A DNA stretch of 64,000 nt from an uncultured Planctomycetia bacterium (GCA_964406665.1 CAYOSQ010000001.1:7412-71411); one strand, 5' to 3'. Numbered from the stretch's first letter, positions 2,638 through 37,040 are shown. Numbers and translations: made by a program. Notes: generated from the letters alone by a model not told the origin.

Positions 2638-3171
2638 TTAGTGGATGCGAAAACTGCGGATTGCTTTTTTAAACGTAGATTCATAATTAGCAAATTGGAT
2701 ATCCTGAGCAGTACAAGTTACGATATAAGCCTTACCGTCCTTAACCCATAATACTGCCAAGGTTTTTATAGACATGTCTTGACCATCACTGGTAAAACTA
2801 AGCCAGTTACCGCGGTGCGACCCAGAAGAGATCTCCCCTTCAGAAATACCATATTCTTCTCCAGGGACTGTTTCTAAGGTTTCGTTTTTGAATAGTTCAA
2901 AAAAAGTAACCGTTTGCATACCGACAGGTGCAGTGGTAACTACTACGTTGATATTCTCCTGAAAACGATCTGCTTTATCTTCCAGCGGGGATTTAGTTAG
3001 AATTATCGTTCCGTACAATCCCTCTATCTTAACCCACAAACGAGGTAGAGAAATTGAGAAACCATAATGCTTGCTTTCATAATTCTGCCACAGAAGCCCA
3101 GGCACAAACAAAATCATTGCCATTATAACAACGAGCATAATTCCAATAATTCTTTTAGCTTTTAAGCTCAT
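2638..3171 (-). CDS. Hypothetical membrane-anchored protein (N-terminal TM helix), the last gene of the Tad-like cluster
   Basis: 177 aa ORF with an N-terminal hydrophobic anchor. It is 2 nt downstream of tadC on the same strand. Confidence 0.4.
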   Translation of the reverse strand: MSLKAKRIIGIMLVVIMAMILFVPGLLWQNYESKHYGFSISLPRLWVKIEGLYGTIILTKSPLEDKADRFQENINVVVTTAPVGMQTVTFFELFKNETLETVPGEEYGISEGEISSGSHRGNWLSFTSDGQDMSIKTLAVLWVKDGKAYIVTCTAQDIQFANYESTFKKAIRSFRIH

Positions 3172-3173
3172 TA

Positions 3174-4052
3174 TTAAAATCCTCCTGGGATTAATTCTCC
3201 TGAAGTAAACTTAATGATAATTGGGCCTGCAACAACAATCATAATTACCGGCAGAATAAAAAACAACAGTGGAAACAGAATCTTAAGAGATGCAGCAATT
3301 GCCTGCCTCTCCCCTTCTATAAAACGCCCTTCGCGGGTATCTTCAGATAAGTTCCTGAAGGCCTCTTCAACAGAAGTACCCATGCGCTCAGACTGAACAA
3401 CCGTACGCACAAAACTTCTGATATCAGGAATATCTAATCTTCTAGACATATCTTTTAAAGCATCTATTCTATTGCGGCCTACCTGAATTTCTTTAAGCAC
3501 AAGTTCAAGTTGTTCGCTAAATGCGTTTCTATCTACTTTCTCAATTACCCATTTAAGTGATGATGTAAAATCTAATCCGGCACCGATACAAAGATCAATT
3601 AAGTCTATAGTTTCTGGAAACACCCTGACTATTTCGCGCTTCTTTTGTTTTATCTTATTCATGAAAATCATGTCTGGAATAAAGAAGCCAATCGTTCCAC
3701 CCGCGAATGCATAGCCTTCTGTCTGGGTTAACAAATAAACAATAAATCCGCTGAACAATGACAAAAATATTTTAACCAACACCAATCCGGTAACATCGAG
3801 ATTGATTCTTAAAACCTCTGTTTGCATCTGAAGTTTCTTTAAATATGCCATATTGGCAATCGGCTGAGTCAAAGGAAGCAGGGGTTTCAACAATTTAGAA
3901 GAAGAAAGCTGATTAAGCCTAGATCCTTTAGAATCCAATACAGAACGCAAACGTGGTTTCTTTTGCACCTGAAGCATAGAGGTAGACATCATATAAACTG
4001 CCGTAGCAACCATAACTAAAATAGAATAATATAAAGTTGTCTCAAAATCCAT
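3174..4052 (-). CDS. tadC: Tad pilus inner-membrane platform protein TadC (type II secretion system F domain)
   Basis: T2SSF-domain signature: GLDFTSSLKWVI...QVGRNRIDALKDMSRRLDIPDIRSFVRTVVQSERMGTSVEEAFRNLSEDTR, followed by C-terminal TM helices. Confidence 0.8.
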   Translation of the reverse strand: MDFETTLYYSILVMVATAVYMMSTSMLQVQKKPRLRSVLDSKGSRLNQLSSSKLLKPLLPLTQPIANMAYLKKLQMQTEVLRINLDVTGLVLVKIFLSLFSGFIVYLLTQTEGYAFAGGTIGFFIPDMIFMNKIKQKKREIVRVFPETIDLIDLCIGAGLDFTSSLKWVIEKVDRNAFSEQLELVLKEIQVGRNRIDALKDMSRRLDIPDIRSFVRTVVQSERMGTSVEEAFRNLSEDTREGRFIEGERQAIAASLKILFPLLFFILPVIMIVVAGPIIIKFTSGELIPGGF

Positions 4053-4906
4053 TATACCCTCAATGTACTGATCTTCTTAATCAGAAATATAGCAAGTATC
4101 TGAGCTATAACTGCAGCAATAAGTAACATCCTGCCCTGCTCAGAACTCCACATAACATCAAAATGATCCGGCTGCTGCTTAGATATGAACAATGCGAAGC
4201 CAATCGGTAAAATACTCATAATGACACCTTGCATTCTTCCCTGCAGAGTAAGAGTCGCTATTTTATTTTTCAATTTTATATTGTTACGCATCGTCTCAAC
4301 AAGCCTGGAAAAAACCCTGGTTAACTCACCACCTGTCTCGCGGGCAACTAGAACAGAGCTAACCAAAAGATTTACTTCTTCAATCGGCATTCTTACCCTC
4401 AGCTTACGCATAGAATCTTCCAGGCTAACGCCCCACTTATTTTCCTTAAGGATCAAATTAAATTCCTGTGATACAGGAGGAGGCATCTCTTCACATAATA
4501 CTTCTATTGCCTGTATAAGACTCAATCCACCTTTTAATGAAGAAGAAAGAATCATCATACTATCAACTAACTGAGCCGTAAACTGCTTAAGCCTTCTTTG
4601 TTTAATAAAATTACTCGCAAAACCTGGAAAGGCTAGGCCTAAGAAAAACCCTACAATCAAACCTATTACACTTTGGAACAAAATAAAAAATGCCCCTGCA
4701 AAAATCAAGGGACATACAGAAATTAAAACTAGCTTCTTCTTTTCTAAAAAAATAAAAGAGTCTTCTAGTTTATCTACTACCTTATCTACTCTTTTTTCCT
4801 GCCAACTACCCCACTTTTTTGCAAAAGCAGGAATAATCGCTTCGACCAAAACGAAAGAAAAAATATAAGTTGCTATAAAAACTAGTAAATATATAAGTGC
4901 GTTCAT
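4052..4906 (-). CDS. tadB: Tad pilus inner-membrane platform protein TadB (T2SSF domain)
   Basis: LKGGLSLIQAIEVL...LVARETGGELTRVFSRLVETMR T2SSF motif with flanking TM helices. Its stop overlaps the tadC start. Confidence 0.8.
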   Translation of the reverse strand: MNALIYLLVFIATYIFSFVLVEAIIPAFAKKWGSWQEKRVDKVVDKLEDSFIFLEKKKLVLISVCPLIFAGAFFILFQSVIGLIVGFFLGLAFPGFASNFIKQRRLKQFTAQLVDSMMILSSSLKGGLSLIQAIEVLCEEMPPPVSQEFNLILKENKWGVSLEDSMRKLRVRMPIEEVNLLVSSVLVARETGGELTRVFSRLVETMRNNIKLKNKIATLTLQGRMQGVIMSILPIGFALFISKQQPDHFDVMWSSEQGRMLLIAAVIAQILAIFLIKKISTLRV

Positions 4907-4915
4907 AGGGCAATA

Positions 4916-5167
4916 CTATGGGGTCGGCGTGCTTATATCTGTAGTTACTGTACTACGAATACCTTCGTTTCCAACTATATCCGGCACATAGGTCTCCCCT
5001 CTACCGTAAGTCTCAGAAACTTCACGCCATTTTCCCACAAAACTATTTCTTATATAATACCCCATAACCACCAAAGTTGCAACAACAATTACAAGTAAAA
5101 CTACATAATCTAGCATTGCCTGAGCATGTCGGTAGCATTTTTGTTTTCTTTTCATCTTACTCCCCAC
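4916..5167 (-). CDS. Small Flp/TadE-like prepilin-type protein (variant class III leader A|QAMLDY)
   Basis: HAQAMLDYVVLLVIVVATLVVMGYY: a basic leader, then the QxxL(D/E)Y motif and a hydrophobic helix. Confidence 0.4.
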   Translation of the reverse strand: MGSKMKRKQKCYRHAQAMLDYVVLLVIVVATLVVMGYYIRNSFVGKWREVSETYGRGETYVPDIVGNEGIRSTVTTDISTPTP

Positions 5168-5227: not shown

Positions 5228-7498
5228 TTATTCCAGAGGTAGAGGACATGGATTTGAGTCGCCCCACGGCCAATCCGGATTCTCATAATCAGGATCAGGT
5301 ATTGCTGCTGGACAAGGAGGATAATCTTCCTGACATAAGATATTACAACACTCTAATTTCTCCGGTTCATCGCTTGTTGCGTAGTGAGAACAACAGTCCT
5401 GACACTCTTCCACCAAGCCAACGCATTCACTTATGCATTCTGCCTGACAATATGGCAAGATTTCTCCTTCTTCTCCTAAGCATGCTTCTTCAAATAAGTC
5501 TGCATTGAAACAATCCGGACATTCATCTTGTATATTCGTATCACCATCAATAAGATCAGCAATTTCTGCAATACAACGCTGTTGACAATCAGTAAGTGTC
5601 TCTCCGAAAAAACATTCATCAGTTGCAACATCATTAAATCCATCCCTATCAGCATCAAACCATCCATTGCCCGGCATTATTTCACAACAGGCATCTATAG
5701 CTAGCTTTAAAGCTTCAAGTGCATTTTGCTGAGCAATCAACCCATCTTCTGCATCATTGATTAATTGTTGAAGCCTATCTCGCAATGTTGATAATCCACA
5801 CAAAGGACCTTCTACCATATTAATACATTCTGATAGAGGAATATCTGATGCCATAATGTCACAACCTTCATCGCAATCCTCTGTAGGCTCCACACACCCT
5901 CTGCCCCAAAGATCAGGAGGATTATTGCCACATTCAACATTATTGTTTACCCAGGGATGAAGATAAGCCCTCTCTCCTCCCGGCAAACTATCCCACCAAG
6001 GAGGATATTGTCCATAGCTTTGCGTCTGGTGCATTACTTTAAGCTCGCAATTATAGAAAAGCCCGTCATTATTATCCAAACAGCAAAAACTTTCACAGCA
6101 CTCCTCTTCATAATCTAAACCAGCTCCTGTTGTCATACAATTTTCAACACATGGAGGCACTTCTTCTGTCCACATGCAGTATCCATAGCACGGAGGATTA
6201 TTGCCAGCATCATCGCACTGAAAACACTCTCTAACATTCCAGCAATACCACCAAAAGCGTCCCCAATCACTACCACAATCGTTTTCAAGCTGCCAGTCAG
6301 TCATTGTGGTATCGCAATGATCATCCTGACAATCGCTGGAACGTGGCGGAACACACAAAGCCATGCAATTATCAAAAGGATCTCCCGGGGGAAGACCTTG
6401 ACACCCTCCAAACATTGGAGAAGTGTTTGCACACCAATCTTCTGCCTCAGCATCACACTGATCTTCACATCTATCTTCTGCCCAAGTATAACAAGGAGCC
6501 TTACAAGGCTCTATGGCAGGCTCTGCGCAATCTTTCTGACAGCGCAACTCTGCATACTCTGCACAGCCATTGCCCGCGAGACCCGATGTAATTCCATTAA
6601 TGATATTATTGGCTTCAGATATCCTAACACCTAACTCTGCTATCTGGCTATCCCACTCATCTTTATATCCTTGTATTAACATAGGGCATTGATTTGCAGC
6701 AATTAAATCTAGGCACGCATTCATTTCATCTAAATTTGTATAAACTGGGTTCTGACAACAGTTATTAATATCGTTGTACCTTGCCTGGATTTCTGCTTTC
6801 CTAGCTGCAAGCTTGTTTGCCTCTGCATCAATCTTGTTTGCAGAGTCTTTCAATTTTCTTGCAGTTACTCCAAAACCTGCCCACCAGCAAAGCTCCCACC
6901 AATCATCGCATTCTTCTGCCTGCCTTCTTAATTCTGCTGCCTCACTGCGCATAGCTCTTTCTGCATCGTCAAGCGCGTCAATCTGTCCCGCTAAAGCAGC
7001 AAGCTTTGCTTCAGTATTTCTTTCACACATACATTTATCATAAACATAACAATCTTCTCTTATTTCATATATAATAATCCCATTTTCTCCAACATGTTCT
7101 ATAACGCATTCAGGATGAGCTGCTCTACACCGTTCCTCTGCATCTGCCATACCAATGGGTTGAAGAACGAACGAAATCTCTTGATCTGTTCTTCCTGCAA
7201 AAACCCAATCGTCAGTTATGTCCAGGGGCGCTATGGGATCAATCGTAGAAGAGCCCAAATAAGCAGTATCGTTATTGAAGGCTCCGTAAGAATCTTTATT
7301 CGCTGCAACCATACGGGTATCTTGATATTCATCTTGGCGCTGGGCAAAGTTTGAGGTAAACCAAAGCCAGATACGCGTAATGCCAATGGCTAATGCTAAA
7401 ACAACTATGAAGGAAAAAACAAAACCCAGGATTGACTGACCTATTCTGCGGTTTTTTCTAACTAGGAAAGGTATTTTTTTACAACCCAAACATATCAC
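5228..7498 (-). CDS. Giant Cys-, Asp/Glu- and Trp-rich secreted or pilus-associated protein with an Flp-like leader (paralog A, 756 aa)
   Basis: The N-terminal RRIGQSILGFVFSFIVVLALAIG resembles the Flp leader of the 71 aa pilin (G|QSILEY). There are about 64 Cys and the protein is very acidic. Conserved blocks AEECDDWWELCWWAGFG and CQAECIS.CVGLV.ECQDCC.HYAT..EPEKLECCN are shared with the 9925-12123 paralog. Confidence 0.6.
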   Translation of the reverse strand: MICLGCKKIPFLVRKNRRIGQSILGFVFSFIVVLALAIGITRIWLWFTSNFAQRQDEYQDTRMVAANKDSYGAFNNDTAYLGSSTIDPIAPLDITDDWVFAGRTDQEISFVLQPIGMADAEERCRAAHPECVIEHVGENGIIIYEIREDCYVYDKCMCERNTEAKLAALAGQIDALDDAERAMRSEAAELRRQAEECDDWWELCWWAGFGVTARKLKDSANKIDAEANKLAARKAEIQARYNDINNCCQNPVYTNLDEMNACLDLIAANQCPMLIQGYKDEWDSQIAELGVRISEANNIINGITSGLAGNGCAEYAELRCQKDCAEPAIEPCKAPCYTWAEDRCEDQCDAEAEDWCANTSPMFGGCQGLPPGDPFDNCMALCVPPRSSDCQDDHCDTTMTDWQLENDCGSDWGRFWWYCWNVRECFQCDDAGNNPPCYGYCMWTEEVPPCVENCMTTGAGLDYEEECCESFCCLDNNDGLFYNCELKVMHQTQSYGQYPPWWDSLPGGERAYLHPWVNNNVECGNNPPDLWGRGCVEPTEDCDEGCDIMASDIPLSECINMVEGPLCGLSTLRDRLQQLINDAEDGLIAQQNALEALKLAIDACCEIMPGNGWFDADRDGFNDVATDECFFGETLTDCQQRCIAEIADLIDGDTNIQDECPDCFNADLFEEACLGEEGEILPYCQAECISECVGLVEECQDCCSHYATSDEPEKLECCNILCQEDYPPCPAAIPDPDYENPDWPWGDSNPCPLPLE

Positions 7499-8486
7499 CT
7501 TCTTCGCTGTAAACTATCTGAACTACGGCTCCTTCCTCTGAAGAAATAATATTGGGCATGATGGTAATTTTGACAAACTCATAATCATTAGTGAAATTCA
7601 AAGTATAGGTCTGATAAAATGCTTTATCTAAATCCCTGGAACCGCTGAAAGGAAAACGAAGCTTTCCTAATTTAAATCCTTTTTTGCTGCCTGACATCTT
7701 CTTATATTTATCCAGCATATCTCCTGCCTTAAAAGAACTGGTTAAATCCCAACCCTCGAGCTCCATCATCCTTTCATAAAATTCCAATGCTTCATCTAAA
7801 GAGAGTTCAGTAGTGTAAGTAACATATGTTTGTTTTCCAATGTTCATGTTGGACAATCGCACACTATCAGGTGGACGAGGAACATCTGATAAATCTTCCC
7901 CCTCTAAATCTTCTTTGGGCATATCAAAAAAAGTGTCTTCTGTTGACATGGGCAGTTCATCTAAGTTGGCAACGCCAATGGGAAGAAGATATTTAGCAAT
8001 ACCAACATCTGTGCCGTCATCAGCAGCAGTTAAAGCTACTTCAACTACTAGCTGATCTTTCTTAAACTGCATCCTGCGTATTTTGCTTCTGGGAAGTAAT
8101 TCCATAACTTTATCTTTAATGTTTCCACCTTTTAATAAAGACGCGTTTTCCGGCTTAGCTATTGACTCTGGTGGAACCATATCAGGCATTTTTTCATCTA
8201 AAACATTATCAAATTCTTCGTCTCGGAAAAAATCACTGTAATAGTTTGCAACATCGAAACGATTATCTTCACTTTTGTATACAACTCCAGAGACATCTTG
8301 ACCTCTTAATTTAAGAGTAAATGTATCTATCTTTTCACTGTTCTCTGGTGCCGGCACAACAAAATCAATACCAACCTCATCTTCAGCCCAAACAGAAGAT
8401 AACAATAAAACAAGTGTCACTACAATAATGACACCCGGATAAACAAACAAATTACTTTTTTTGAAATATTTTCTATGTACCATCAT
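7479..8486 (-). CDS. Hypothetical secreted/periplasmic protein (N-terminal signal anchor) inside the Tad cluster
   Basis: 335 aa ORF with N-terminal hydrophobic segment VIIVVTLVLLLSSVWA. Same strand as the cluster and overlaps its neighbours by a few nt. Confidence 0.45.
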   Translation of the reverse strand: MMVHRKYFKKSNLFVYPGVIIVVTLVLLLSSVWAEDEVGIDFVVPAPENSEKIDTFTLKLRGQDVSGVVYKSEDNRFDVANYYSDFFRDEEFDNVLDEKMPDMVPPESIAKPENASLLKGGNIKDKVMELLPRSKIRRMQFKKDQLVVEVALTAADDGTDVGIAKYLLPIGVANLDELPMSTEDTFFDMPKEDLEGEDLSDVPRPPDSVRLSNMNIGKQTYVTYTTELSLDEALEFYERMMELEGWDLTSSFKAGDMLDKYKKMSGSKKGFKLGKLRFPFSGSRDLDKAFYQTYTLNFTNDYEFVKITIMPNIISSEEGAVVQIVYSEEGDMFGL

Positions 8487-9906
8487 CCCATTCTATCTCT
8501 TCTATGCCTGCTTCATAAAGATGTAGTTCAGTATTAAAATAATCTTCCCAGTGAGATATGATATAGGCAATGCCGATAGGTGCAGCTAACAATGTAAGGA
8601 ATATACCCCAGAGATTATCGGCATCCCATAAAGTCGGCTGAATAGTAGAAGTCCTTCCTCCGGGATAGCTTTCTACAAAAACCCGTGAGGAAGACTCGGC
8701 ATCAATTTGCTCCAACATAGGATCAGAATTACCATAGCGGAAATTCCATAAACCTAAGTTTTCTCCCTGCTTGTACCTTTGCACTTTAACCAATATAGGA
8801 CTGTTTTCTACCTGCCACTGTTGACCATCCATACCACCTTCGCTTGGATCTTTAAACTTCAGGCCGAAAGCAATGGATTTAATTAGCAACCTTCCTATTG
8901 TTGCCTCGGCACCGGCAAACAACCCTGCGATAATTGGTGCAAGCGGACCTGCCCAACCACACATGGCCAGCCAAGTAGGATATCTTGTTACAAATATATA
9001 GGCCCAAGCTAAATTAGCAGCCATATCCTGAGGTGCACCTAAATCAACTAAATCCAAAATGTACAACATTCTCATAGAAATTACACTTACTTCTACCCAG
9101 TTATCATAATCTCTCCAACAGCCATCATCCAGGCCGCCCCCCAAACAAGCTTGTTGATTTCCTCCAGAATCATCAAAACTGTTATGCATTACCCAATCAT
9201 CAGCAGCAACAGACCATTGCCACTCCCAACCATAGCCGTTTATCGGCATGGGGTCGCCTAAATCTGCTGAGGGGTCGTCAGTTTCTCCAAAAACATCTTC
9301 AACCCAAAACCCAGTTTTTGAATGAGACATAAATCTGGAAAAGCCGTTCATTCCATGCTCTTTAGCGTCAGGGCTTATACCAGCTATGTATTCATCATAT
9401 GATGCATTGCTGGCAGCCTTACCCGATCCTGCAAGAAAATCTTCATAGGTAGGCCTAGGTTCATCAACGCCTACATTGTTAAACGCATACTGTATGGCCG
9501 CCTTTCTGGCTCTTGCCCAGGCCATCTGAGAATCCCAACCAGCTTTTGCAAGCTTTGATAAATTGGAAGACATTACCGTTGCCAATGTTGCTATAGCAGT
9601 AATAAGATTTCCCGGAAACGGGATAAGAAGAAGCTCTAATATAATAGCTACACATTTTATTATATTCTCACCACACATTAAGTCGCTGGTAAGACCATAG
9701 CTAAGCAACTGACCTGTCATAGTGCTAGCTGCAGAGATTGACCCTGCATCAGCAGCATTGGATACATCGGTTTTAAACAAGGCTATCTGACCTACGTTTA
9801 CGGTAATCATTACCATAACGATTACAACGCAGAGAATCGCAATCAGAAAAGGAAATATCTGACCTGATTCATACTTTGTTTTGTCTTGGGAAAACTTAAT
9901 AAACAT
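8473..9906 (-). CDS. tadG: TadG-like pilus-assembly protein (TadE/G-like N-terminal domain)
   Basis: N-terminal GQIFPFLIAILCVVIVMVMITVNVGQIALFKTDVSNAADAGSISAAS matches the TadG pattern (TM helix followed by an NAADA(A/G) motif). Confidence 0.5.
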   Translation of the reverse strand: MFIKFSQDKTKYESGQIFPFLIAILCVVIVMVMITVNVGQIALFKTDVSNAADAGSISAASTMTGQLLSYGLTSDLMCGENIIKCVAIILELLLIPFPGNLITAIATLATVMSSNLSKLAKAGWDSQMAWARARKAAIQYAFNNVGVDEPRPTYEDFLAGSGKAASNASYDEYIAGISPDAKEHGMNGFSRFMSHSKTGFWVEDVFGETDDPSADLGDPMPINGYGWEWQWSVAADDWVMHNSFDDSGGNQQACLGGGLDDGCWRDYDNWVEVSVISMRMLYILDLVDLGAPQDMAANLAWAYIFVTRYPTWLAMCGWAGPLAPIIAGLFAGAEATIGRLLIKSIAFGLKFKDPSEGGMDGQQWQVENSPILVKVQRYKQGENLGLWNFRYGNSDPMLEQIDAESSSRVFVESYPGGRTSTIQPTLWDADNLWGIFLTLLAAPIGIAYIISHWEDYFNTELHLYEAGIEEIEWDDGT

Positions 9907-9924
9907 AAAATCCTTTTTCCACTA

Positions 9925-12123
9925 TTATTCCGGAGGATCAGGACATTCATCCGGCCAAGATGGATCATCCGGATCAGGTATTGCTCCCGGACACGGTGGA
10001 TAATCATTTTGACACAGAACATTACAACATTCTAGCTTCTCCGGTTCATGATTTGTAGCATAGTGAGCGCAACAATCCTGACACTCTCCAACCAAGCCTA
10101 CGCATAAACTTATACATTCAGCCTGACAATAAGGCATTATTTCACCGCCTACAACACATCCTTCATCCCATCCTGCATCTGCAGGATCAAAACAGTGGGG
10201 GCATTCATCCTGCAGCTCTCCGCCGCCTTCTCCAAATTCTGCGATTTCTGAAATACAACGCTGCTGACAACCAGAGTGCGTTTCTCCTATAAAACAATCA
10301 GCAGTAGTATAATCACAATATCCATCGCCGTCGTCATCAACCCAGTCCACATCACAACATTCTCCTATAGCAACAATTTTTGCTTCTAGTTCTGTCCTGT
10401 TATATAGTAACCCATCTGGTTCATCATGTATTACGTGCCAAAGACGTCTGCGCAGTTCTTCCAGACCACACTGTCGACCGCCTTCACACTGTGGCGGCAT
10501 TTCTGCTCCTTCGCAATCCTCATCGCAAAAATCATCTGGCTGGTAACAATCTCTGCCCCAAGTATTACCCATGCATTCAACAATATTGTCTACCCAAGGA
10601 TGAACATAATAATTCTGTGGTCCTGGTAAGCTATCCCACCATGGAGTATATACTCCGTGGCTTTCTGTTTCATGCATTACTCCGAACTCGCAACCATAGA
10701 AAAATCCTTGAGCATTTTCCCGACAACAGAAACTCTGGCAACATTCAGTCAAATATCCTGGCCCAGCTCCTGTGGCAATACAGTCGGCTTTACAAGGAGG
10801 CACGTTTACTGTCCACATACAATGACGGTAGTAATTCGGGTTTGCGGCATTAGATGTAAGACATCTTCTCAAGTCCCAACAACGCCACCAGTCAGAACCC
10901 GTGTATCCTCCAGGGTTAGGTGAACAATTATTCCGTAATCGGTTTTCGGTAAAATTATCACAACGGTTATCTACACATTCATCTGTTCTATCAGGAATAC
11001 AATCATCCCAACAATCCTGCCACGCCTGTCCCTCAAGGCCATCACAGTCAATTGTACATTGATCCTCTGCCCAATCATCACAGCGATCTAAACAACGGTC
11101 TAAATCGTACACATCTTCACAATGGTCTCTACAAGGGTCTATGTTTGGTACAACACAATCTTTCTGGCAACGCAACTCTGTGTAAAGATCACAGCCGTTA
11201 GCTCCCTCAAGTCCGTTCCATATTCCACCACGAATAGAATTGGCTTCATTTATCATGCGATTAATCTCATCAACCATCTGTTCCCAGTCATCAACAATAC
11301 CAGCAACAATTATAGGACACTCTGCTGCAGCAATTTCATCTAAACATGCATCCATTTCATTTCTATTTTCATATGCAGCATCATTACAACAAGCATAAAT
11401 CGCATCTCTTCTTGCGGCAATCTCATTTCTTCTGGTTACAAGCTTATCTGCTTCTTGATCTATTTTTCTTGCCGAATCTTTAAGCTTTCTGGCTGTTACA
11501 CCAAAGCCTGCCCACCAACAAAGCTCCCACCAATCGTCGCATTCTTCTGCCTGCTCTCTTAATTCATTAGCTTCGTGTCTCATAGCATTAATTGCATCGT
11601 TAAGAGAGGCTATCTGTCCGTTAAAAGATGCCATCTTGGGATCGATTGATTTATTACACAAACATCTATCATAACAAAGGCATCCGGTCACAATCCAAAC
11701 ACCATCTATCTCTTCAAAACAATCAGGGTTAGCATCTATACATTCATTTCTACATTCCTCTTCGGCATCTGCAAGACCTATAGGTTGAAGAACAAATGAT
11801 ATTTCTTGATCTGTTCTTCCTGCAAAAACCCAATCATCGGTTATGTCCAGGGGCGCTGCAGGATCAATAGTGGGAGAGCCCAAATAAGCAGTATCGTTAT
11901 TGAGGACTCCGTAAGAATCTTTATTCGCTGCAACCATGCGGGTATCTTGATATTCATCCTGGCGCTGGGCAAAGTTTGAGGTAAACCAAAGCCAGATACG
12001 CGTAATACCGATTGCTAATGCCAAAACAACTATGAAGGAAAAAACAAAACCCAGGATTGACTGACCGCGTCTTATTCCTGGGGGTTTAAAGAAAATTTTT
12101 CTAGAGAAAGATTTATTTGACAT
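9925..12123 (-). CDS. Giant Cys-, Asp/Glu- and Trp-rich protein with an Flp-like leader (paralog B, 732 aa)
   Basis: After the leader the N-terminus is identical to paralog A for about 55 aa (GQSILGFVFSFIVVLALAIGITRIWLWFTSNFAQRQDEYQDTRMVAANKDSYG), and the DDWWELCWWAGFGVTARKLKDSA block is shared. An AAAGGGG RBS precedes the start. Confidence 0.6.
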   Translation of the reverse strand: MSNKSFSRKIFFKPPGIRRGQSILGFVFSFIVVLALAIGITRIWLWFTSNFAQRQDEYQDTRMVAANKDSYGVLNNDTAYLGSPTIDPAAPLDITDDWVFAGRTDQEISFVLQPIGLADAEEECRNECIDANPDCFEEIDGVWIVTGCLCYDRCLCNKSIDPKMASFNGQIASLNDAINAMRHEANELREQAEECDDWWELCWWAGFGVTARKLKDSARKIDQEADKLVTRRNEIAARRDAIYACCNDAAYENRNEMDACLDEIAAAECPIIVAGIVDDWEQMVDEINRMINEANSIRGGIWNGLEGANGCDLYTELRCQKDCVVPNIDPCRDHCEDVYDLDRCLDRCDDWAEDQCTIDCDGLEGQAWQDCWDDCIPDRTDECVDNRCDNFTENRLRNNCSPNPGGYTGSDWWRCWDLRRCLTSNAANPNYYRHCMWTVNVPPCKADCIATGAGPGYLTECCQSFCCRENAQGFFYGCEFGVMHETESHGVYTPWWDSLPGPQNYYVHPWVDNIVECMGNTWGRDCYQPDDFCDEDCEGAEMPPQCEGGRQCGLEELRRRLWHVIHDEPDGLLYNRTELEAKIVAIGECCDVDWVDDDGDGYCDYTTADCFIGETHSGCQQRCISEIAEFGEGGGELQDECPHCFDPADAGWDEGCVVGGEIMPYCQAECISLCVGLVGECQDCCAHYATNHEPEKLECCNVLCQNDYPPCPGAIPDPDDPSWPDECPDPPE

Positions 12124-12164: not shown

Positions 12165-13085
12165 CTAAAAATTAGTATCCCACGTTCGGTTTATTATAAC
12201 ACGATTATCGGGATTGTTTATAGTATTTGGATCATATTTTATTCTATTGTCATTAGTATCATACCAGGCTCCCTGAGCAAGATCTTGCGGATCCAATAAT
12301 TCCCAATCACCTTCAGCCGGAGAACCATCATCTGCATCGTGTTGCGATACAGATGTATCTCTGCGCAAAAAAACTGTTGATTCAATATTCTCACTTAATT
12401 CCATACGCTGCGTATTAGAAATTCTTGCCGGTCCCTCCCCAGCGGGCAGCTGATGTTTTCTCGAGGTTGAAGTAAGCTGTGTATGCTTAGCTGTAACATC
12501 TCTCCAAACAGTAGAAGGAACTTTCGACCAAGTGTCGTCTCCCCCTGTAGGATCGGTTGCTGCTTTGGGGTAGCGAGTTAACATTACATCGGGGTTGCCT
12601 ACGCGTGCTGTTTCCCAATCATGCGTGCCCACAAACTGATTGTTGACTTCGTAATACGAAAAAGATCCTTGTATTGTCGAACTATCATTGTCTTCTTTTT
12701 TATTATGGCATCCATGTTCATCATGCTGGCAACCAGCCATACCTTTCTGCCACATAACCGATGCAGATGCAGTTAAGGTAGATGGTTGGCTTTCACCAAA
12801 ATTTGCTAAAGCATTATAAAAACGGTTGTCTTTCTTTAAAGTATAAGAAACATTTGCATTTCTCTGATATGATTTCTGCAAAGCCTTGCGGAATGCCTCC
12901 TGTTTTAATGCTTGCTGTGCATCTATGCGTTGTCCGTATGTGATAAGTGAAGAAAATGCAACAAGAACTAAACTTCCTAAGATTGCCAGCTCTGCTGCTG
13001 CCTGGCCTGTGCGGAAAATAAATGCAGAATATTTGTTTCTTTTCTGATTCGGCTTTAATATCTTATGCGTTCTTCCAAACCTCAT
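12165..13085 (-). CDS. TadE/TadF-like pseudopilin (prepilin-type, leader G|QAAAEL)
   Basis: RTGQAAAELAILGSLVLVAFSSLITYGQ matches the TadE-like N-terminal domain pattern. Confidence 0.55.
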   Translation of the reverse strand: MRFGRTHKILKPNQKRNKYSAFIFRTGQAAAELAILGSLVLVAFSSLITYGQRIDAQQALKQEAFRKALQKSYQRNANVSYTLKKDNRFYNALANFGESQPSTLTASASVMWQKGMAGCQHDEHGCHNKKEDNDSSTIQGSFSYYEVNNQFVGTHDWETARVGNPDVMLTRYPKAATDPTGGDDTWSKVPSTVWRDVTAKHTQLTSTSRKHQLPAGEGPARISNTQRMELSENIESTVFLRRDTSVSQHDADDGSPAEGDWELLDPQDLAQGAWYDTNDNRIKYDPNTINNPDNRVIINRTWDTNF

Positions 13086-13111: not shown

Positions 13112-13579
13112 CTAAAATTCTGGAGCTGCAATATCAAATTCACCCTGATCTAAAAATTGATCCTGCTGAATTAACATTTCGTAACCGTCACCAGTAGATG
13201 CTGTAACCCTATTCATCAATACTTCATTATCATTAGGATCAAGGAACGAGCTTTTTAAACCACCATGAGCTTCATGCGCTACTTGCTTGCGTTTCTGGGC
13301 TGTTCTGGTCCTTGTCCTGGTGTTATCAAATTCATCTCCGTCAGCAAGTTCTTCAAGTAATTCTTCTCCAGTATCAACCCTCCAGGGCTCTCCAATTCCC
13401 CAGCTTGACCAGAGCACTAAATCAGAAGTCTGATTAACCTTCTGCTGCAGGGAATTTGAAAGCGGCCTCTGAACTGTAGCAAGGACTGCCAGAACCACTA
13501 CAAACACCGACGCCCACATTATAATGCTTTGGCCTTTTCTATTTAATATTTTACCATCCATAGGAGAAAATTCCTCCAT
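13112..13579 (-). CDS. Prepilin-like protein with a variant leader (G|QSIIMW), acidic C-terminal part
   Basis: NRKGQSIIMWASVFVVVLAVLATV hydrophobic helix after a Gly-Gln processing-like site. Confidence 0.4.
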   Translation of the reverse strand: MEEFSPMDGKILNRKGQSIIMWASVFVVVLAVLATVQRPLSNSLQQKVNQTSDLVLWSSWGIGEPWRVDTGEELLEELADGDEFDNTRTRTRTAQKRKQVAHEAHGGLKSSFLDPNDNEVLMNRVTASTGDGYEMLIQQDQFLDQGEFDIAAPEF

Positions 13580-13583
13580 TTTT

Positions 13584-13910
13584 TTAATCTAGACCAGCTA
13601 ACCCGTCTACAGCTTCCCTGCGATCAAACGTAGTAGATGAATTAGAAAAAGTTAATGTAACACCGTCAGGAGCTCCGTTTACTCCCATATAACTATCTGT
13701 ATTAGTAGTAACTGTAGATTCTATTAGTGCGGTTGTATGTCTTGGGGAATATTGTGACGGGCTTATTGTATCGGCTTCCTGCTTCAGTCTTCCTGAATAT
13801 GCTCTCCTGACATAAGTCGCCATAAGTAAAAGAGCGCTGAGGACAAGCGCGATCAATACCGTATACTCTAATAACCCTTGACCTTTACAGTTTCTCATTT
13901 TTCTTAACAT
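13584..13910 (-). CDS. Flp/TadE-type prepilin (G|QGLLEY)
   Basis: CKGQGLLEYTVLIALVLSALLLMATYVRRAYSG: the class III (Tad-type) signal motif G/xxxxEY followed by a hydrophobic helix. Confidence 0.55.
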   Translation of the reverse strand: MLRKMRNCKGQGLLEYTVLIALVLSALLLMATYVRRAYSGRLKQEADTISPSQYSPRHTTALIESTVTTNTDSYMGVNGAPDGVTLTFSNSSTTFDRREAVDGLAGLD

Positions 13911-13945
13911 AAGCTTTTCCTTAAAATAGTTATTCTTAAGCTCAA

Positions 13946-14419
13946 TTAATCAATTTCACCTAAATCAAAAGGTGCTGGAAAATCTTCCCAGACGGTTGAG
14001 TTATCAACTATATCTTCAGTCCTATAGAGCTCCCCTATGGCAGAGTCTGTTTGTTTTCTAATGTCAGTATCAAATCTATTGCCAACGGAAGCTCTATAGG
14101 AATAAATACCTTTGTCCGCAACATACTGCGGAGTATAACCAAAACCATCAGGCAAAAATTCGGATATATGCCCGGCGCCCTCAGCTGTAGCAGTTTCTTC
14201 TGCTACTTCCTGATCGCCGATCATTGTCCGCGCAACTCTTTCGCTGGTGGCAGTGGGGGAAAACTGTTCCCCCATCCTTTCTGCTGCATCATTCATGCTA
14301 CCTGAAAATCCTCTTTTAACAATTGTCTGCATAAGTAGCAAAGCAGAAAGCACCACCGCCAAAACAATTGCGTACTCTAACATACTTTGAGCTTTACGTT
14401 TGCCTTTTTTAAAGGACAT
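13946..14419 (-). CDS. Flp/TadE-type prepilin (A|QSMLEY)
   Basis: KRKAQSMLEYAIVLAVVLSALLLMQTIVKRGFSG. Confidence 0.55.
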   Translation of the reverse strand: MSFKKGKRKAQSMLEYAIVLAVVLSALLLMQTIVKRGFSGSMNDAAERMGEQFSPTATSERVARTMIGDQEVAEETATAEGAGHISEFLPDGFGYTPQYVADKGIYSYRASVGNRFDTDIRKQTDSAIGELYRTEDIVDNSTVWEDFPAPFDLGEID

Positions 14420-14464
14420 CTTCTCTCCTGCTTTTCTTTTCTAAACTGCTTTTAACAATCCCTA

Positions 14465-14953
14465 TTATTCCCAAAGAGCTTCAGGATTGTCCCATTCATC
14501 ATCTAAAGCCTCATACTCAGCTGATGTATGATCTTCATGAATAGTTGAATCAGTTGTCTGCCTTGTATCTGTTGAATAACCGTGCCCTACACGAGAACTA
14601 ATGCTGTTAGCGCCTCTATCGATTGCACCTACAATGTCATAATCTGCAACTCCAGCATCAGCAGCAGCATCAGCGATCAAGTCTGTCATAAGATCGTCTG
14701 AAGAATCAATACCACCTTCTTCAACGATAATATGATCTTCACCTTCTGCCATTGCTCGTGTTTCTTGTATAACTGAATTAGAAACTGAGTATTGATCACC
14801 CATTCTTGAAGCAGCATCATTAATACCACCTGAAACACCACGCTTGACTATTGCCTGCAAAAGTAAAAACGCGGAGATGACAACTGCTAAAAGAATAGCA
14901 TATTCAATCATTGATTGTGCTCTTCTATTCTTATACAGCTTCATATTTCTCAC
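14465..14953 (-). CDS. Flp/TadE-type prepilin (A|QSMIEY), paralog of 13946-14419
   Basis: NRRAQSMIEYAILLAVVISAFLLLQAIVKRGVSGG. Confidence 0.55.
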   Translation of the reverse strand: MRNMKLYKNRRAQSMIEYAILLAVVISAFLLLQAIVKRGVSGGINDAASRMGDQYSVSNSVIQETRAMAEGEDHIIVEEGGIDSSDDLMTDLIADAAADAGVADYDIVGAIDRGANSISSRVGHGYSTDTRQTTDSTIHEDHTSAEYEALDDEWDNPEALWE

Positions 14954-14999
14954 CTTCCTTAATGTTTTATGCTTTTATTAAATAATTTAAAAATCTCTA

Positions 15000-15383
15000 C
15001 TATTCTCCCTCTTCTACTAATCTGTTAATATCAAGTGTAGTAGTTTCAGTCGCGGTCTCGTTATGCTTCATTTCCGCACCACCCTTTAACCTGATCTTCT
15101 CATCCGTATAACCGGTTTCTAAGCTAGTGGTATGGCGGACCTGCTCGCTTACTGCATAGACATCCTGCATTGTGTCAAAACCTGCTTCTTCCATAGCATC
15201 ATCTAGCTCTGAAGTACCTGCTCGCAGCATAAACTCAACTGCTCTATCCTGCTTTACGTTTATGGCGTTCTTCAATGAGACTGAAAGAGCGCCAGCGGCA
15301 ATCGCAATTACAGCGGCAAAGATTATGCCGTATTCTGCAGTCGATTGCGCCCTTTTGCTTTTAAATAATCGTCTCAAAAACAT
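15000..15383 (-). CDS. Flp/TadE-type prepilin (A|QSTAEY)
   Basis: KSKRAQSTAEYGIIFAAVIAIAAGALSVSL. Confidence 0.5.
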   Translation of the reverse strand: MFLRRLFKSKRAQSTAEYGIIFAAVIAIAAGALSVSLKNAINVKQDRAVEFMLRAGTSELDDAMEEAGFDTMQDVYAVSEQVRHTTSLETGYTDEKIRLKGGAEMKHNETATETTTLDINRLVEEGE

Positions 15384-15447
15384 GTTTTATTCGCCTCCTT
15401 AAATTACTATATATTTTATTTTCAATTTCATTGTTTTCACAATTTGC

Positions 15448-15663
15448 TTACTCTTCCTGAAATACACCCATGCCTAAGTCATCAACAGTACTTTTTAATG
15501 CTGTACCTGTTTTAGAATAGGCACCTTCGACTGATTCTTTAATTGAACCACCACCGATACCGGTAAACAAAACGGCAACAATAGCAGCAACAACCACGCC
15601 GAGAATAAGGGTATACTCCAATATACTCTGACCTGATCTTGACGCTGTTCTCATATTATTCAC
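15448..15663 (-). CDS. flp: Flp-family major pilin candidate (71 aa, G|QSILEY)
   Basis: SRSGQSILEYTLILGVVVAAIVAVLFTGIGG. Its small size and canonical G/xxxxEY motif are typical of Flp pilins. Confidence 0.6.
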   Translation of the reverse strand: MNNMRTASRSGQSILEYTLILGVVVAAIVAVLFTGIGGGSIKESVEGAYSKTGTALKSTVDDLGMGVFQEE

Positions 15664-15673
15664 CTCCCTTCCT

Positions 15674-15907
15674 TTATCTATTATATGTCATTTCTTCCTG
15701 AACACGTTTTAAATATCTATTATATGTCATTTCTTCCTGAACACGTTTTAAACGCGCATTCACGGAACGATATACATACCGATGTGTAATAATAATCCCG
15801 GCTGCGACTACAGCGAATAGTAATGTAAATTCGATAATACTCTGTGCTTTTCTGCATTTATTAAGCTTAATTAGTATCATTCTGTAATCATCACCCCCCC
15901 TGCACAC
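15674..15907 (-). CDS. Flp/TadE-type prepilin-like protein (A|QSIIEF) with a duplicated 13 aa C-terminal repeat. The true start is probably the internal Met near 15880.
   Basis: KCRKAQSIIEFTLLFAVVAAGIIITHRY. The C-terminus reads RVQEEMTYNRYLKRVQEEMTYNR, matching a 39 bp tandem DNA duplication. Confidence 0.45.
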   Translation of the reverse strand: MCRGGDDYRMILIKLNKCRKAQSIIEFTLLFAVVAAGIIITHRYVYRSVNARLKRVQEEMTYNRYLKRVQEEMTYNR

Positions 15908-16143
15908 TGAGTTACGGTTCTAAAATATTGATCGAATATTCCTCTTTCTCCTTCTCCACCTGTTGACTTACCTACATCAACCCAGAAATAAACTGCAATC
16001 AAAGCAATAATAGCAAAACTGACCAGTGCAACATATTCTAATAAAACCTGGCCGTTTCTTTTCTTTGATTTGCCTGAAATTCTTTTTAAAGACTTTTTAA
16101 AACTCATAATCAACTCTCCAAAAATAAAAACCGGATTACTCAA
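15877..16143 (-). CDS. Flp/TadE-type prepilin (G|QVLLEY), the first gene of the pilin array
   Basis: KKRNGQVLLEYVALVSFAIIALIAVYFWV. Confidence 0.5.
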   Translation of the reverse strand: MSNPVFIFGELIMSFKKSLKRISGKSKKRNGQVLLEYVALVSFAIIALIAVYFWVDVGKSTGGEGERGIFDQYFRTVTQCAGGVMITE

Positions 16144-18953: not shown

Positions 18954-19295
18954 CTACTCGAAGCGCAGCTCATCATCAATCTGAGTCTGGGTTTGGGATA
19001 TTTTTTTTGCAGGTAACTCAACAACCGAATGCGCCTTAAGATAAATTCTGCTTATCTTACCGGGCGACATATCTTCTCTTAATCCAATAACTTTGTTTTT
19101 GCTATCTATAAAAACTGCATCCATATTAAAGCGCATAAAAAAGGTGTGGATAGAATTGCAGCGTCGGATAATAAGGGCTTCGTTTGCTTCTAGCGATTGC
19201 TTGCCCAGAAGACCTTTTGTCCTTGAAAAAAAAGTATCCGCAACTACTACCTTATCTGCTAATAGCGCGTTGCGGGTTTGATTGAAAATTTTCAT
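18954..19295 (-). CDS. DUF192 (COG1430) family protein
   Basis: 113 aa ORF. The FFSRTKGLLGKQSLEANEALIIRRCNSIHTFFMRFNMDAVFID pattern is typical of DUF192. Confidence 0.55.
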   Translation of the reverse strand: MKIFNQTRNALLADKVVVADTFFSRTKGLLGKQSLEANEALIIRRCNSIHTFFMRFNMDAVFIDSKNKVIGLREDMSPGKISRIYLKAHSVVELPAKKISQTQTQIDDELRFE

Positions 19296-19303
19296 GAAAT
19301 AAT

Positions 19304-21457: not shown

Positions 21458-21471
21458 ATGTTTTTGGTAGT

Positions 21472-23097: not shown

Positions 23098-23105
23098 TTT
23101 CCTCC

Positions 23106-30576: not shown

Positions 30577-30578
30577 AA

Positions 30579-34566: not shown

Positions 34567-34571
34567 AAACT

Positions 34572-36083: not shown

Positions 36084-36086
36084 AAT

Positions 36087-37022: not shown

Positions 37023-37040
37023 TTAGTTGTTTAATCAATT

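What the first reader, a model, noticed from the sequence alone, without database searches (positions are those of the whole stretch)
5228..12123. Two paralogous giant pilin-leader proteins with extraordinary Cys, Asp/Glu and Trp content
The 756 aa and 732 aa proteins start with a leader nearly identical to the Flp pilin leader (RRGQSILGF versus RSGQSILEY) and a TM helix. They continue into ectodomains with about 64 Cys (roughly 8.5%), about 25% Asp+Glu, clusters such as DDWWELCWWAGFG, and many CC, CxC and CxxxC spacings. Conserved N-terminal (about 200 aa) and C-terminal (about 70 aa) modules flank a divergent middle. There are no CxxCH haem motifs. I do not recognise this domain family. Possible roles are pilus-tip or pilus-associated adhesins, or metal/mineral-binding surface proteins, stabilised by many disulfides.
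Basis: seen in the sequence. Interest (0 to 1): 0.9.

Follow-up and report, generated by a model that had tools for sequence, protein, structure and literature searches.

The report
Cysteine-rich giant minor pilins of Tad pilus
Two paralogous 730-760-residue proteins in a tight-adherence (Tad) pilus operon of an uncultivated bacterium are oversized versions of a small minor pilin, carrying a new, probably disulfide-stapled helical domain, and most likely serve as two alternative pilus-tip modules.

Summary
Two intact paralogues, A (5228-7498, minus strand) and B (9925-12123, minus strand), are 56% identical. They have 64 and 63 Cys (8.5%), 3.0-3.4% Trp and no CxxCH. Asp+Glu is 19%, not 25%.

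They lie inside a complete Tad/Flp operon. No Pfam, NCBIfam, PDB-sequence or fold match exists. An exhaustive HMMER search nevertheless found about 130 unannotated relatives (clusters at 50% identity).

All relatives share a pilin-type N-terminus. Most long members add a Cys framework and a CDDPWELCWWGxWG hairpin motif.

In nine relatives' loci examined, the gene sits directly after a ~250-350-aa gene (TadE-like in the window). Where the contig continues, a TadG-like gene follows. In one locus that slot holds a 94-aa, Cys-free pilin, so the giants are expanded minor pilins.

Cys spacing is helical: i,i+4 is enriched (z = 19.7) and CxxC is depleted. Cys counts are mostly even. This favours disulfide staples over metal sites.

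A distant lineage also carries two copies, with a gene-converted pilin base and a divergent middle.

Best reading: interchangeable pilus-tip modules (confidence about 0.6). This is a new variant of a known kind.

The parts
9925..12123 (-). Protein B, 732 aa: Cys-rich giant minor-pilin-like protein, sitting in the family's usual slot between the TadE-like and TadG-like genes
5228..7498 (-). Protein A, 756 aa (753 aa in the JGI call): second paralogue, placed after the AF_1845-like gene and before the 83-aa Flp-like gene and TadB
11926..12075 (-). B residues 17-66: basic leader, G20/Q21 putative prepilin cleavage site (Gly instead of Glu/Asp at +5), hydrophobic alpha1 helix and the RIWxWF..N(F/Y)AxRQ..YQ motif
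7295..7441 (-). A residues 20-68: the same pilin-type N-terminal module, about 95% identical to B
11494..11541 (-). B residues 195-210, CDDWWELCWWAGFGVT: the most conserved ectodomain motif of the family, predicted as a beta-hairpin at the turn of a 45-residue helical hairpin
6863..6910 (-). A residues 197-212: the same CDDWWELCWWAGFGVT motif
12165..13085 (-). 306-aa TadE-like minor pilin candidate (GQAAAE leader, Glu at +5), always directly upstream of the family gene
8473..9906 (-). 477-aa TadG-like protein (PF13400, 28.8 bits, above the cut-off), directly downstream of the family gene in every locus that extends far enough
7479..8486 (-). 335-aa protein with an N-terminal hydrophobic signal-like segment and a faint AF_1845 hit; conserved operon member
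4916..5167 (-). 83-aa Flp-like small pilin, conserved just upstream of TadB
3174..4906 (-). TadB-like (4052-4906) and TadC-like (3174-4052) platform proteins (T2SSF domain)
2638..3171 (-). PsbP-like protein, conserved last gene of the operon
13112..16143 (-). Array of eight small Flp/pilin-like genes (71-162 aa) with (G/A)Q-type leaders; six have (I/L/A)E(Y/F) at +4 to +6, while 13112-13579 has Met at +5
16391..18790 (-). 799-aa Glu/Pro-rich protein of unknown function; a similar 650-770-aa gene holds this position in relatives' operons
18954..24970 (-). Machine genes: DUF192, TadZ(ParA)-TadA(T2SSE) fusion, secretin fused to TonB_C, RcpC/CpaB, and a SurA-like PPIase

Best explanation
A and B are modular minor pilins (pseudopilins) of the Tad/Flp pilus encoded around them.

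Proposed steps, all inferred:
1. Each protein is inserted into the inner membrane by its class-III-type N-terminus and probably trimmed after Gly20 by a prepilin peptidase encoded elsewhere.
2. The ectodomain folds in the periplasm into an elongated, mostly helical domain. Cys residues lie along one face of the helices and staple neighbouring helices by about 30 disulfides.
3. Residues 20-120, shared by both paralogues, dock with the single TadE-like (306 aa) and TadG-like (477 aa) neighbours to form a priming complex on the TadB/C platform.
4. Flp subunits polymerise beneath this complex, driven by the TadZ-TadA ATPase, so the complex leaves through the secretin and ends up at the distal pilus tip.
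5. Both proteins have Gly rather than Glu or Asp at +5. They could therefore be the capping subunit.
6. The two paralogues give the cell two alternative tips on one common base. The conserved base and C-terminal modules form the scaffold, and the divergent middle carries target specificity, such as adhesion to a surface or a host or prey cell.

Shown by the analysis: gene context, family membership, positional equivalence to a small pilin, Cys statistics, and mosaic evolution. Inferred: processing, disulfide formation, complex formation, tip location and adhesive function.
For: - Operon: there is a complete Tad set around the genes: TadB/C, TadZ-TadA, secretin, RcpC and a TadG-like gene. Gene junctions overlap or leave very short gaps.
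- Family: 132 relatives at E <= 1e-3, of which 90 at E <= 1e-10, share the leader (A/G/S at -1, Gln at +1, Phe at +6) plus a TM helix and the RIWxWFNANYAxRQxxYQxSR motif.
- Pilin link: 23 of 133 relatives give TadE hits (best E = 1e-6) and 6 give Class_IIIsignal hits.
- Positional equivalence: in L010 the 94-aa, Cys-free member P0113 (GQAMIE leader) occupies the same slot, upstream of the TadG-like and AF_1845-like genes.
- Synteny: the same arrangement is seen in L001, L005, L006, L007, L008/L009, L011, L012 and L013.
- Structure: AF2 with a 95-sequence alignment gives mean pLDDT 73, and above 90 for residues 120-320 and 520-630. It predicts a 48-residue N-terminal helix followed by long helical hairpins.
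- Cys statistics: i,i+4 spacing has z = 19.7, i+8 z = 10.9, i+12 z = 8.5, and CxxC z = -5.3. Counts are even in 53 of 68 members, p = 4e-6. 60 Cys columns are shared by A and B.
- Shared base: residues 20-120 of A and B have dS 0.32 and omega 0.09, against dS of 1.2 or more elsewhere. The L008 pair shows 0 nonsynonymous and 7 synonymous changes over 470 codons, with a divergent middle (dS 1.1-1.5).
- Literature: TadE/F/G-like minor pilins form interchangeable Tip complexes on a Tad pilus (PMC12075869). Tip complexes are capped by a subunit lacking Glu5 (PMC10191384).
Against: - A and B themselves give no TadE, Flp or N_methyl hit at E <= 0.1. The TadE link rests on distant short relatives, and most of the hits examined are below the Pfam cut-off.
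- No prepilin peptidase gene was found among the scanned ORFs of the 64-kb window.
- Position +5 is Gly, and many relatives have Ala or Ser at -1, so cleavage is not assured.
- B has an odd number of Cys (63).
- A 75-kDa domain has to pass through the secretin.
- No experimental data exist for any member.
- The host appears to be an anaerobe (PFOR), and no Dsb-type oxidase is present in the window.
Confidence: 0.6

Rival explanations
1. A and B are uncleaved bitopic inner-membrane proteins. Their Cys-rich domains stay in the periplasm as structural or assembly parts of the Tad machine, for example an alignment or stator-like element. They are never displayed on the pilus.
For: - A and B have no acidic residue at +5, and many relatives have Ala or Ser at -1.
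- No prepilin peptidase was found in the window.
- The large size is awkward for passage through the secretin.
- The most conserved motifs (the WELCWW hairpin and the C-terminal module) are invariant across lineages, as expected for contacts with conserved machine parts.
Against: - The same slot is filled by a 94-aa canonical pilin-like protein in L010.
- Length varies from 94 to 1053 aa, and paralogous pairs have divergent middles. This fits an exposed, target-facing module better than a machine part.
- A small residue at -1 and Gln at +1 are conserved as in the co-encoded Flp pilins.
Confidence: 0.2
2. The Cys- and acid-rich ectodomains are metal-, mineral- or redox-active surface proteins (metallothionein-like, Fe-S or Zn-binding, or part of extracellular electron transfer) that are merely anchored by a pilin-like N-terminus.
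For: - Cys is 8.5% and Asp+Glu is 19%.
- The host looks like an anaerobe (PFOR), where extracytoplasmic disulfide formation is less obvious.
- B has an odd Cys count.
Against: - There is no CxxCH.
- CxxC and CxC spacings are depleted family-wide (z = -5.3 and -4.2), while helical i+4, i+8 and i+12 spacings are enriched.
- Cys counts are even in 53 of 68 members.
- His is scarce (6 and 12 residues).
- There is no Pfam, NCBIfam or PDB match to any metalloprotein.
Confidence: 0.07
3. A and B are pilus-delivered effectors or membrane-attacking tips. The conserved Trp/Gly-rich, Cys-braced hairpin at the end of a long helical stalk inserts into a host or prey envelope during epibiotic parasitism or predation. 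The paralogues extend host range.
For: - The motif CDDPWE(L/I)CWWGx(W/F)GKT is the most conserved ectodomain element. It is predicted at the turn of a 45-residue helical hairpin.
- Tad pili mediate contact-dependent killing in Myxococcus (PMC12075869) and are linked to a predatory or parasitic lifestyle in Omnitrophota (PMC10066038).
- L008 has an ORF of more than 3686 aa near the operon, as reported for Omnitrophota Tad-flanked giant genes (bioRxiv 10.64898/2026.06.07.730766).
Against: - There is no structural similarity to any fusion or pore-forming protein.
- The lineage is not established.
- Such a conserved motif could equally be a buried interface.
- The NCBIfam hits to pore-former models (MakE, NheA) for the L005 homologue are far below their cut-offs.
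Confidence: 0.1

Closest known systems
TadE/TadF/TadG-type minor pilin 'Tip' complexes of Tad pili (Myxococcus KilL/KilM/KilN; Herrou et al. 2025, PMC12075869)
   Same: - Three adjacent pilin-like genes sit inside a Tad locus: a TadE-like gene, the family gene, and a TadG-like gene.
- One component carries a large domain of unknown fold.
- Paralogous copies suggest interchangeable tips.
   Different: - Here the enlarged component is the one that is small (94 aa) in related operons, not the TadG-like protein.
- Only that one component is duplicated, rather than whole trios.
- The domain is 6-10% Cys and helical.
- No sequence similarity to Kil proteins could be tested.
Modular type IV pilins with grafted domains (Streptococcus sanguinis PilB/PilC; reviewed in PMC10191384)
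   Same: A pilin N-terminal module is followed by a large extra domain, presumed to be displayed on the filament for adhesion.
   Different: - The grafted domains of PilB and PilC are known folds (vWA, lectin). This domain has no Pfam, PDB or fold relative.
- The system is Tad (T4c), not T4a.
GspK/PilK-type capping pseudopilins that lack Glu5
   Same: A and B lack an acidic residue at +5 and are large compared with the major pilin. This fits a capping position (PMC10191384).
   Different: - There is no homology to GspK.
- Most relatives in the family keep Asp or Glu at +5.
- The window also encodes separate GspK-like Cys-rich proteins.
Twin CX3C / CX9C (CHCH-type) disulfide-stapled helical hairpins
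   Same: Cys residues are spaced i,i+4 and lie within predicted helices, as in proteins whose antiparallel helices are linked by pairs of disulfides.
   Different: - This is only an analogy of design.
- There is no sequence or fold match, the location is bacterial and extracytoplasmic, and there are tens of Cys rather than four.
Pfam TadE (PF07811), Class_IIIsignal (PF04021)
   Same: Leader plus hydrophobic helix. 23 of 133 relatives give TadE hits and 6 of 133 give Class_IIIsignal hits.
   Different: - A and B do not hit either model at E <= 0.1.
- The RIWxWFNANYAxRQxxYQxSR extension is specific to this family.

Membership tests
Type IV filament pilins (class III signal peptide proteins) | A short basic leader ending in a small residue (Gly/Ala/Ser), followed by about 20 hydrophobic residues at the N-terminus | tested here: met
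   A has ..KNRRIG|QSILGFVFSFIVVLALAIGI and B has ..GIRRG|QSILGF.... Across 126 anchored relatives, position -1 is A/G/S in 98, +1 is Gln by the way the anchor was chosen, and +6 is Phe in 80.
Type IV filament pilins (class III signal peptide proteins) | Conserved acidic residue (Glu5) in the mature N-terminus | tested here: not met
   A and B have Gly at +5. Among relatives the count is Asp 52, Glu 27 and Gly 22 of 126. Absence of Glu5 is known for capping subunits (PMC10191384), so this does not exclude a pilin role.
Type IV filament pilins (class III signal peptide proteins) | Extended N-terminal alpha1 helix | tested here: met
   The AF2 model predicts helix 19-66, with pLDDT 81-90 for residues 21-50. 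This is a prediction only.
Type IV filament pilins (class III signal peptide proteins) | Cleavage by a dedicated prepilin peptidase | not testable with these tools
   No Peptidase_A24-type gene was found among the scanned window ORFs. The remaining ORFs were checked only by reading their translations. Biochemistry is needed.
Type IV filament pilins (class III signal peptide proteins) | Encoded within a pilus biogenesis gene cluster | tested here: met
   The genes lie in a complete Tad operon. The synteny is conserved in nine relatives' loci examined.
Pfam TadE (PF07811) | Match to the model at or above the gathering score (22.9 bits) | tested here: not met
   A and B give no hit at E <= 0.1. 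23 of 133 relatives hit, with best E = 1e-6. The short members examined individually score 13-16 bits.
Pfam Tad / TadG-like (PF13400) | Match to the model | tested here: not met
   A and B give no hit. The neighbouring 477-aa gene does hit (28.8 bits).
Tad minor-pilin Tip complex (TadEFG / KilLMN type) | Adjacent genes for three pilin-like proteins, including a TadG-like one, in a Tad locus | tested here: met
   In the window the order is the 306-aa TadE-like gene, B, then the 477-aa TadG-like gene. The same order holds in L005, L006, L007, L008, L010, L011 and L012.
Tad minor-pilin Tip complex (TadEFG / KilLMN type) | The three proteins assemble through a bundle of their alpha1N helices and prime pilus polymerisation | not testable with these tools
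   No multimer prediction or genetics was available. Indirect support comes from residues 20-120 being kept about 95% identical between A and B, which must share single-copy partners.
Multihaem c-type cytochromes | CxxCH haem-binding motifs | tested here: not met
   There are none in A or B.
Cys-based metal-binding proteins (zinc ribbons, Fe-S, metallothionein-like) | Clustered CxxC or CxC ligand spacings | tested here: not met
   CxxC occurs 4 times in A and 2 in B, and CxC 1 and 2 times. In the shuffle analysis, which excludes the leader, the expected count is about 5.5 for each spacing. Family-wide, i+3 has z = -5.3 and i+2 has z = -4.2.
WXG100 (PF06013) helical hairpins | Match to the model; about 100-aa helix-turn-helix with WxG at the turn | tested here: not met
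   Only 12 of 133 relatives give weak hits (best E = 4.5e-4), and A and B give none. There is a resemblance of shape (a helical hairpin with W/G at the turn), but no membership.

The most novel reading that the evidence does not exclude
The family could be a previously unrecognised class of Tad pilus tip devices in uncultivated, possibly host-dependent bacteria (Omnitrophota-like). In this reading, a disulfide-stapled helical stalk presents an invariant Trp/Gly-rich, Cys-braced hairpin (CDDPWELCWWGxWG) that engages or inserts into the envelope of a host or prey cell. Gene-converted paralogue pairs with divergent middle cassettes would set host range.
Probability: 0.12. Interest if true: 0.8.

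Novelty: new variant of a known kind. Interest (0 to 1): 0.55.

Why it matters
Tad pili are widespread adhesion and predation organelles, and what sits at their tips has only begun to be described (PMC12075869).

This locus shows that a normally tiny minor pilin has been expanded up to about 1050 residues. The added domain has no known relative and has one of the highest Cys densities seen in a bacterial surface protein. It recurs in about 130 sequence clusters, all unannotated.

The family offers three things:
- a defined candidate for the target-binding end of the pilus in uncultivated lineages;
- a natural example of a heavily disulfide-stapled helical architecture;
- a case of paralogue pairs with a homogenised base and a divergent middle, suggesting switchable specificity.

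It also fills an annotation gap: a family HMM could be built from the alignment made here.

Tried and rejected
- The word-indexed search (search for homologous proteins) with B found only the paralogue and one 30%-identical protein. Repeating it with a 68-sequence alignment again gave only 3 hits, so the index is insensitive for this family. The exhaustive HMMER search was the one that worked.
- The first AF2 run, with a 3-sequence alignment, was unusable (mean pLDDT 40).
- The afdb50 fold library was not available.
- A PDB sequence-profile search found nothing. NCBIfam found nothing for long or short members.
- Cytochrome and metal-cluster readings were rejected on motif statistics.
- The weak DUF6381, WXG100 and prefoldin hits were judged to reflect coiled-coil composition.
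- The viral fusion-protein analogy was tested by fold search and is not supported.
- Model coordinates are not exposed, so predicted Cys-Cys distances could not be measured.
- The organism could not be identified. The one GTDB relative is labelled 'uncultured Planctomycetales bacterium' by its submitter. An Omnitrophota affiliation is only suggested by context.

Full report
**1. The observation**

The two ORFs are real and intact on the minus strand. A runs 5228-7498 and is 756 aa from a GTG start; a JGI gene call begins 3 codons later and gives 753 aa. B runs 9925-12123 and is 732 aa.

They align over their whole length at 56% identity. Composition:
- A has 64 Cys (8.5%), 18.8% Asp+Glu and 3.0% Trp.
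- B has 63 Cys (8.6%), 19.1% Asp+Glu and 3.4% Trp.
- There is no CxxCH.
- CxxxC occurs 13 times in A and 15 in B.
- Forty-five other ORFs of the window average 1.4% Cys.

The conserved N-terminus is also interrupted. Residues 30-120 are about 95% identical, residues 120-175 are 37-50%, and residues 176-235 are about 80%. The C-terminal residues 660-720 are about 85% identical.

Sixty Cys columns are shared between the paralogues, although non-Cys identity is only 57%. The same genes occur on several independent JGI contigs, so they are not assembly artefacts.

**2. Context**

The genes lie in one long minus-strand Tad/Flp operon. In transcription order:

| Coordinates | Product |
|---|---|
| 24041-24970 | SurA-like PPIase |
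| 23106-24041 | RcpC/CpaB |
| 21472-23097 | Secretin fused to a TonB_C domain |
| 19304-21457 | TadZ(ParA)-TadA(T2SSE) fusion |
| 18954-19295 | DUF192 |
| 16391-18790 | 799-aa Glu/Pro-rich protein of unknown function |
| 13112-16143 | Eight small Flp-like pilin genes |
| 12165-13085 | 306-aa TadE-like protein |
| 9925-12123 | **B** |
| 8473-9906 | 477-aa TadG-like protein (PF13400, above cut-off) |
| 7479-8486 | 335-aa AF_1845-like protein with an N-terminal signal-like segment |
| 5228-7498 | **A** |
| 4916-5167 | 83-aa Flp-like protein |
| 4052-4906 | TadB-like |
| 3174-4052 | TadC-like |
| 2638-3171 | PsbP-like protein |

Neighbouring genes overlap or are separated by fewer than 20 nt around A and B.

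**3. A hidden family**

Pfam, NCBIfam and a PDB sequence-profile search give nothing for A or B. The word-indexed protein search found only the paralogue and one 30%-identical protein.

An exhaustive HMMER search of 1.84 billion cluster representatives found 132 relatives at E <= 1e-3. Of these, 90 are at E <= 1e-10 and 49 at E <= 1e-30.

All share the N-terminal roughly 100 residues:
- a basic leader;
- a small residue at -1 (A/G/S), Gln at +1 and Phe at +6;
- a hydrophobic helix;
- a family-specific extension, GI(T/V)RIWxWFNANYAxRQxxYQxSRxxAG.

Long members (400-1041 aa, 4-10.6% Cys) add:
- a first Cys cluster (B positions 124-156);
- the motif C-D-D-(P/W)-W-E-(L/I)-C-W-W-G-x-(W/F)-G-K-T;
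- a CC doublet at 245/246, plus C260 and C269;
- a variable insert;
- a conserved C-terminal module (C526, C533, C537, C552, CC589/590, C623).

Each of these Cys positions is conserved in more than 90% of the 68 long members.

The weak end of the hit list consists of 75-110-aa, Cys-free proteins. They have canonical GQxx(I/L)E leaders and the same RIWxW...RQ..Y..(S/T)R..AG extension.

**4. The giants are expanded minor pilins**

Twenty-three of 133 relatives give Pfam TadE hits (best E = 1e-6) and six give Class_IIIsignal hits. The short members I examined individually score below the TadE cut-off, and A and B do not hit at all.

The stronger argument is position. In the nine relatives' loci examined (L001, L005, L006, L007, L008/L009, L010, L011, L012, L013), the family gene follows a ~250-350-aa gene, which in the window is TadE-like. 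Wherever the contig extends far enough, it precedes a TadG-like gene, then an AF_1845-like gene, a small Flp-like gene, TadB, TadC and a PsbP-like gene. The second L008 copy, like window protein A, sits further downstream, after the AF_1845-like gene.

In L010 that slot holds the 94-aa member P0113. The giant Cys-rich proteins are therefore positional equivalents of a small TadE/F-type minor pilin that has acquired a C-terminal extension of 300 to about 950 residues.

**5. The ectodomain**

With a 95-sequence alignment, AlphaFold2 gives mean pLDDT 73 and pTM 0.59. pLDDT exceeds 90 for residues 120-320 and 520-630, which are the two family-conserved modules.

The model is almost entirely helical:
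- an N-terminal helix, residues 19-66;
- a 45-residue helical hairpin (149-194 and 211-247), with the WELCWWAGFG segment as a beta-hairpin at its turn;
- further helices, many of which contain CxxxC pairs.

Cys spacing is strongly helical:

| Spacing | Result |
|---|---|
| i,i+4, family-wide | 527 observed against 239 expected, z = 19.7 |
| i,i+4, protein B | 15 observed against 5.7 expected |
| i,i+8 | z = 10.9 |
| i,i+12 | z = 8.5 |
| i,i+3 (CxxC) | z = -5.3 |
| i,i+2 (CxC) | z = -4.2 |

Ectodomain Cys counts are even in 53 of 68 long members (binomial p = 4e-6).

Together these results point to Cys arrayed on one face of the helices and paired as inter-helix disulfides. They argue against CxxC-type metal or redox centres. 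I could not measure Cys-Cys distances because model coordinates are not exposed.

**6. Paralogues**

Most loci carry one copy. The window has two, and so does a distant lineage (L008/L009): a 1053-aa gene in the B-like slot and the 1034-aa P0062 just upstream of TadB.

The L008 pair is 82% identical overall. It is 100% identical over residues 1-470 and highly similar (dN 0.03) over the last approximately 220 residues, with a divergent middle.

Regional Nei-Gojobori estimates show a mosaic:
- In L008, codons 1-470 have 7 synonymous and 0 nonsynonymous differences (dS <= 0.08). The middle has dS 1.1-1.5 and omega 0.28-0.52.
- In the window pair, residues 20-120 have dS 0.32 and omega 0.09. Elsewhere dS is 1.2-1.8, with omega 0.24-0.41 in the middle. 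Residues 661-720 have omega 0.06.

The pilin base is therefore kept the same in both copies, by gene conversion plus purifying selection, while the middle diverges.

Each operon has only one TadE-like and one TadG-like gene. The simplest reading is that both paralogues must fit the same partners and differ in what they present.

**7. Mechanism proposed**

The steps below are inferred except where noted.
- Membrane insertion occurs through the class-III-type N-terminus.
- A prepilin peptidase cleaves after Gly20. None is encoded in the window.
- The helical ectodomain folds oxidatively in the periplasm.
- The N-terminal module assembles with the TadE-like and TadG-like proteins into a priming complex on TadB/C.
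- Flp polymerises underneath, powered by TadZ-TadA.
- The assembly leaves through the secretin, so the complex caps the pilus.

A and B have Gly at +5. The literature states that tip complexes are capped by a subunit lacking Glu5 (PMC10191384), which is compatible with a capping position. However, most relatives keep Asp or Glu at this position.

The concept of interchangeable Tad tips made of TadE/F/G-like minor pilins has experimental support in Myxococcus (PMC12075869).

**8. Rivals**

| Rival | Assessment |
|---|---|
| Uncleaved periplasmic machine component | Possible, given Gly at +5 and no peptidase seen. Harder to reconcile with the 94-aa positional equivalent and the variable middles. 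About 0.2. |
| Metal, mineral or redox protein | Disfavoured by the motif statistics. About 0.07. |
| Membrane-attacking tip that uses the invariant Trp/Gly hairpin | Attractive, given the predatory and parasitic associations of Tad pili (PMC12075869, PMC10066038). No structural support. About 0.1. It is a special case of the best explanation. |

**9. Novelty and limits**

The system type, a Tad pilus with modular minor pilins, is known. Three things are new:
- the family itself, which is unannotated;
- the identity of the expanded component;
- the extreme, helically phased Cys content and the fold.

I therefore rate it a new variant of a known kind, with moderate-to-high interest.

The organism is unidentified. 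One relative is a MAG labelled Planctomycetales by its submitter. An ORF of more than 3686 aa next to the L008 operon recalls Omnitrophota, where Tad cassettes flank giant genes (bioRxiv 10.64898/2026.06.07.730766; PMC10066038). This remains unverified.

Nothing here demonstrates expression, processing, disulfides, tip location or adhesion.

Noticed in passing
window 25137-26840 (-), 26854-28734 (-), 31260-33038 (+): A second, unrelated set of three paralogous large pilin-like proteins (567, 626 and 592 aa). They give weak GspK-like N-terminal hits and have 4.6-5.8% Cys, concentrated in a C-terminal third with CX3C-like spacing. The first two share an identical stretch of about 65 residues at the N-terminus (offset by a 14-aa extension in the 626-aa ORF). 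Large Cys-rich pseudopilin paralogues may therefore be a general theme in this organism.
   Followed up: partly
window 28707-29782 (-) and 30136-31235 (+): Two divergently oriented paralogous cassettes of pseudopilins of the N-methylation-motif (T4a/T2SS) type. One 212-aa member hits the Pfam N_methyl model; the others were recognised from their N-terminal sequences. Each cassette precedes one or two of the GspK-like Cys-rich proteins and lies directly upstream of the Tad operon.
   Followed up: partly
window 19304-21457 (-) and 21472-23097 (-): Unusual fusions in the Tad machine: TadZ (ParA-like) fused to the TadA ATPase, and the secretin fused to a C-terminal TonB_C domain. Both fusions recur in relatives' operons (L006; the ATPase fusion also in L007).
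   Followed up: partly
window 16391-18790 (-): A 799-aa protein with a very Glu/Pro/Lys-rich central region, no Pfam match, and only a faint IS481-transposase-like hit near its N-terminus. A 650-770-aa gene occupies the same operon position in L006 and L007.
   Followed up: no
window 15674-15907 (-): A small Flp-like ORF whose C-terminus contains a direct peptide repeat (RYLKRVQEEMTYNR twice). This suggests a short tandem duplication in the DNA.
   Followed up: no
window 55333-56835 (-): A 500-aa protein with a C-terminal Peptidase_S74 domain (intramolecular chaperone of endosialidase/tail-fibre type), in an otherwise housekeeping neighbourhood.
   Followed up: no
window 58935-59624 (-): A 229-aa protein with a signal peptide, 4.4% Cys and 3.9% Trp, and no Pfam match. 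It lies between the pheT and pheS genes.
   Followed up: no
window 33325-38213 (+): A FIST-domain protein, a GAF histidine kinase, a response regulator with a GGDEF domain, and a TPR protein, next to the pseudopilin cassette. This is a possible c-di-GMP regulatory module for the pili.
   Followed up: no
L008 16698-19105 (+): An ORF of more than 3686 aa begins three genes downstream of the related Tad operon on a 206-kb JGI contig. This is reminiscent of the giant genes reported next to Tad cassettes in Omnitrophota.
   Followed up: partly
window 39018-39923 (-): A CsgG-like lipoprotein (curli-type secretion channel family) with a FlgT_C-like C-terminal domain.
   Followed up: no
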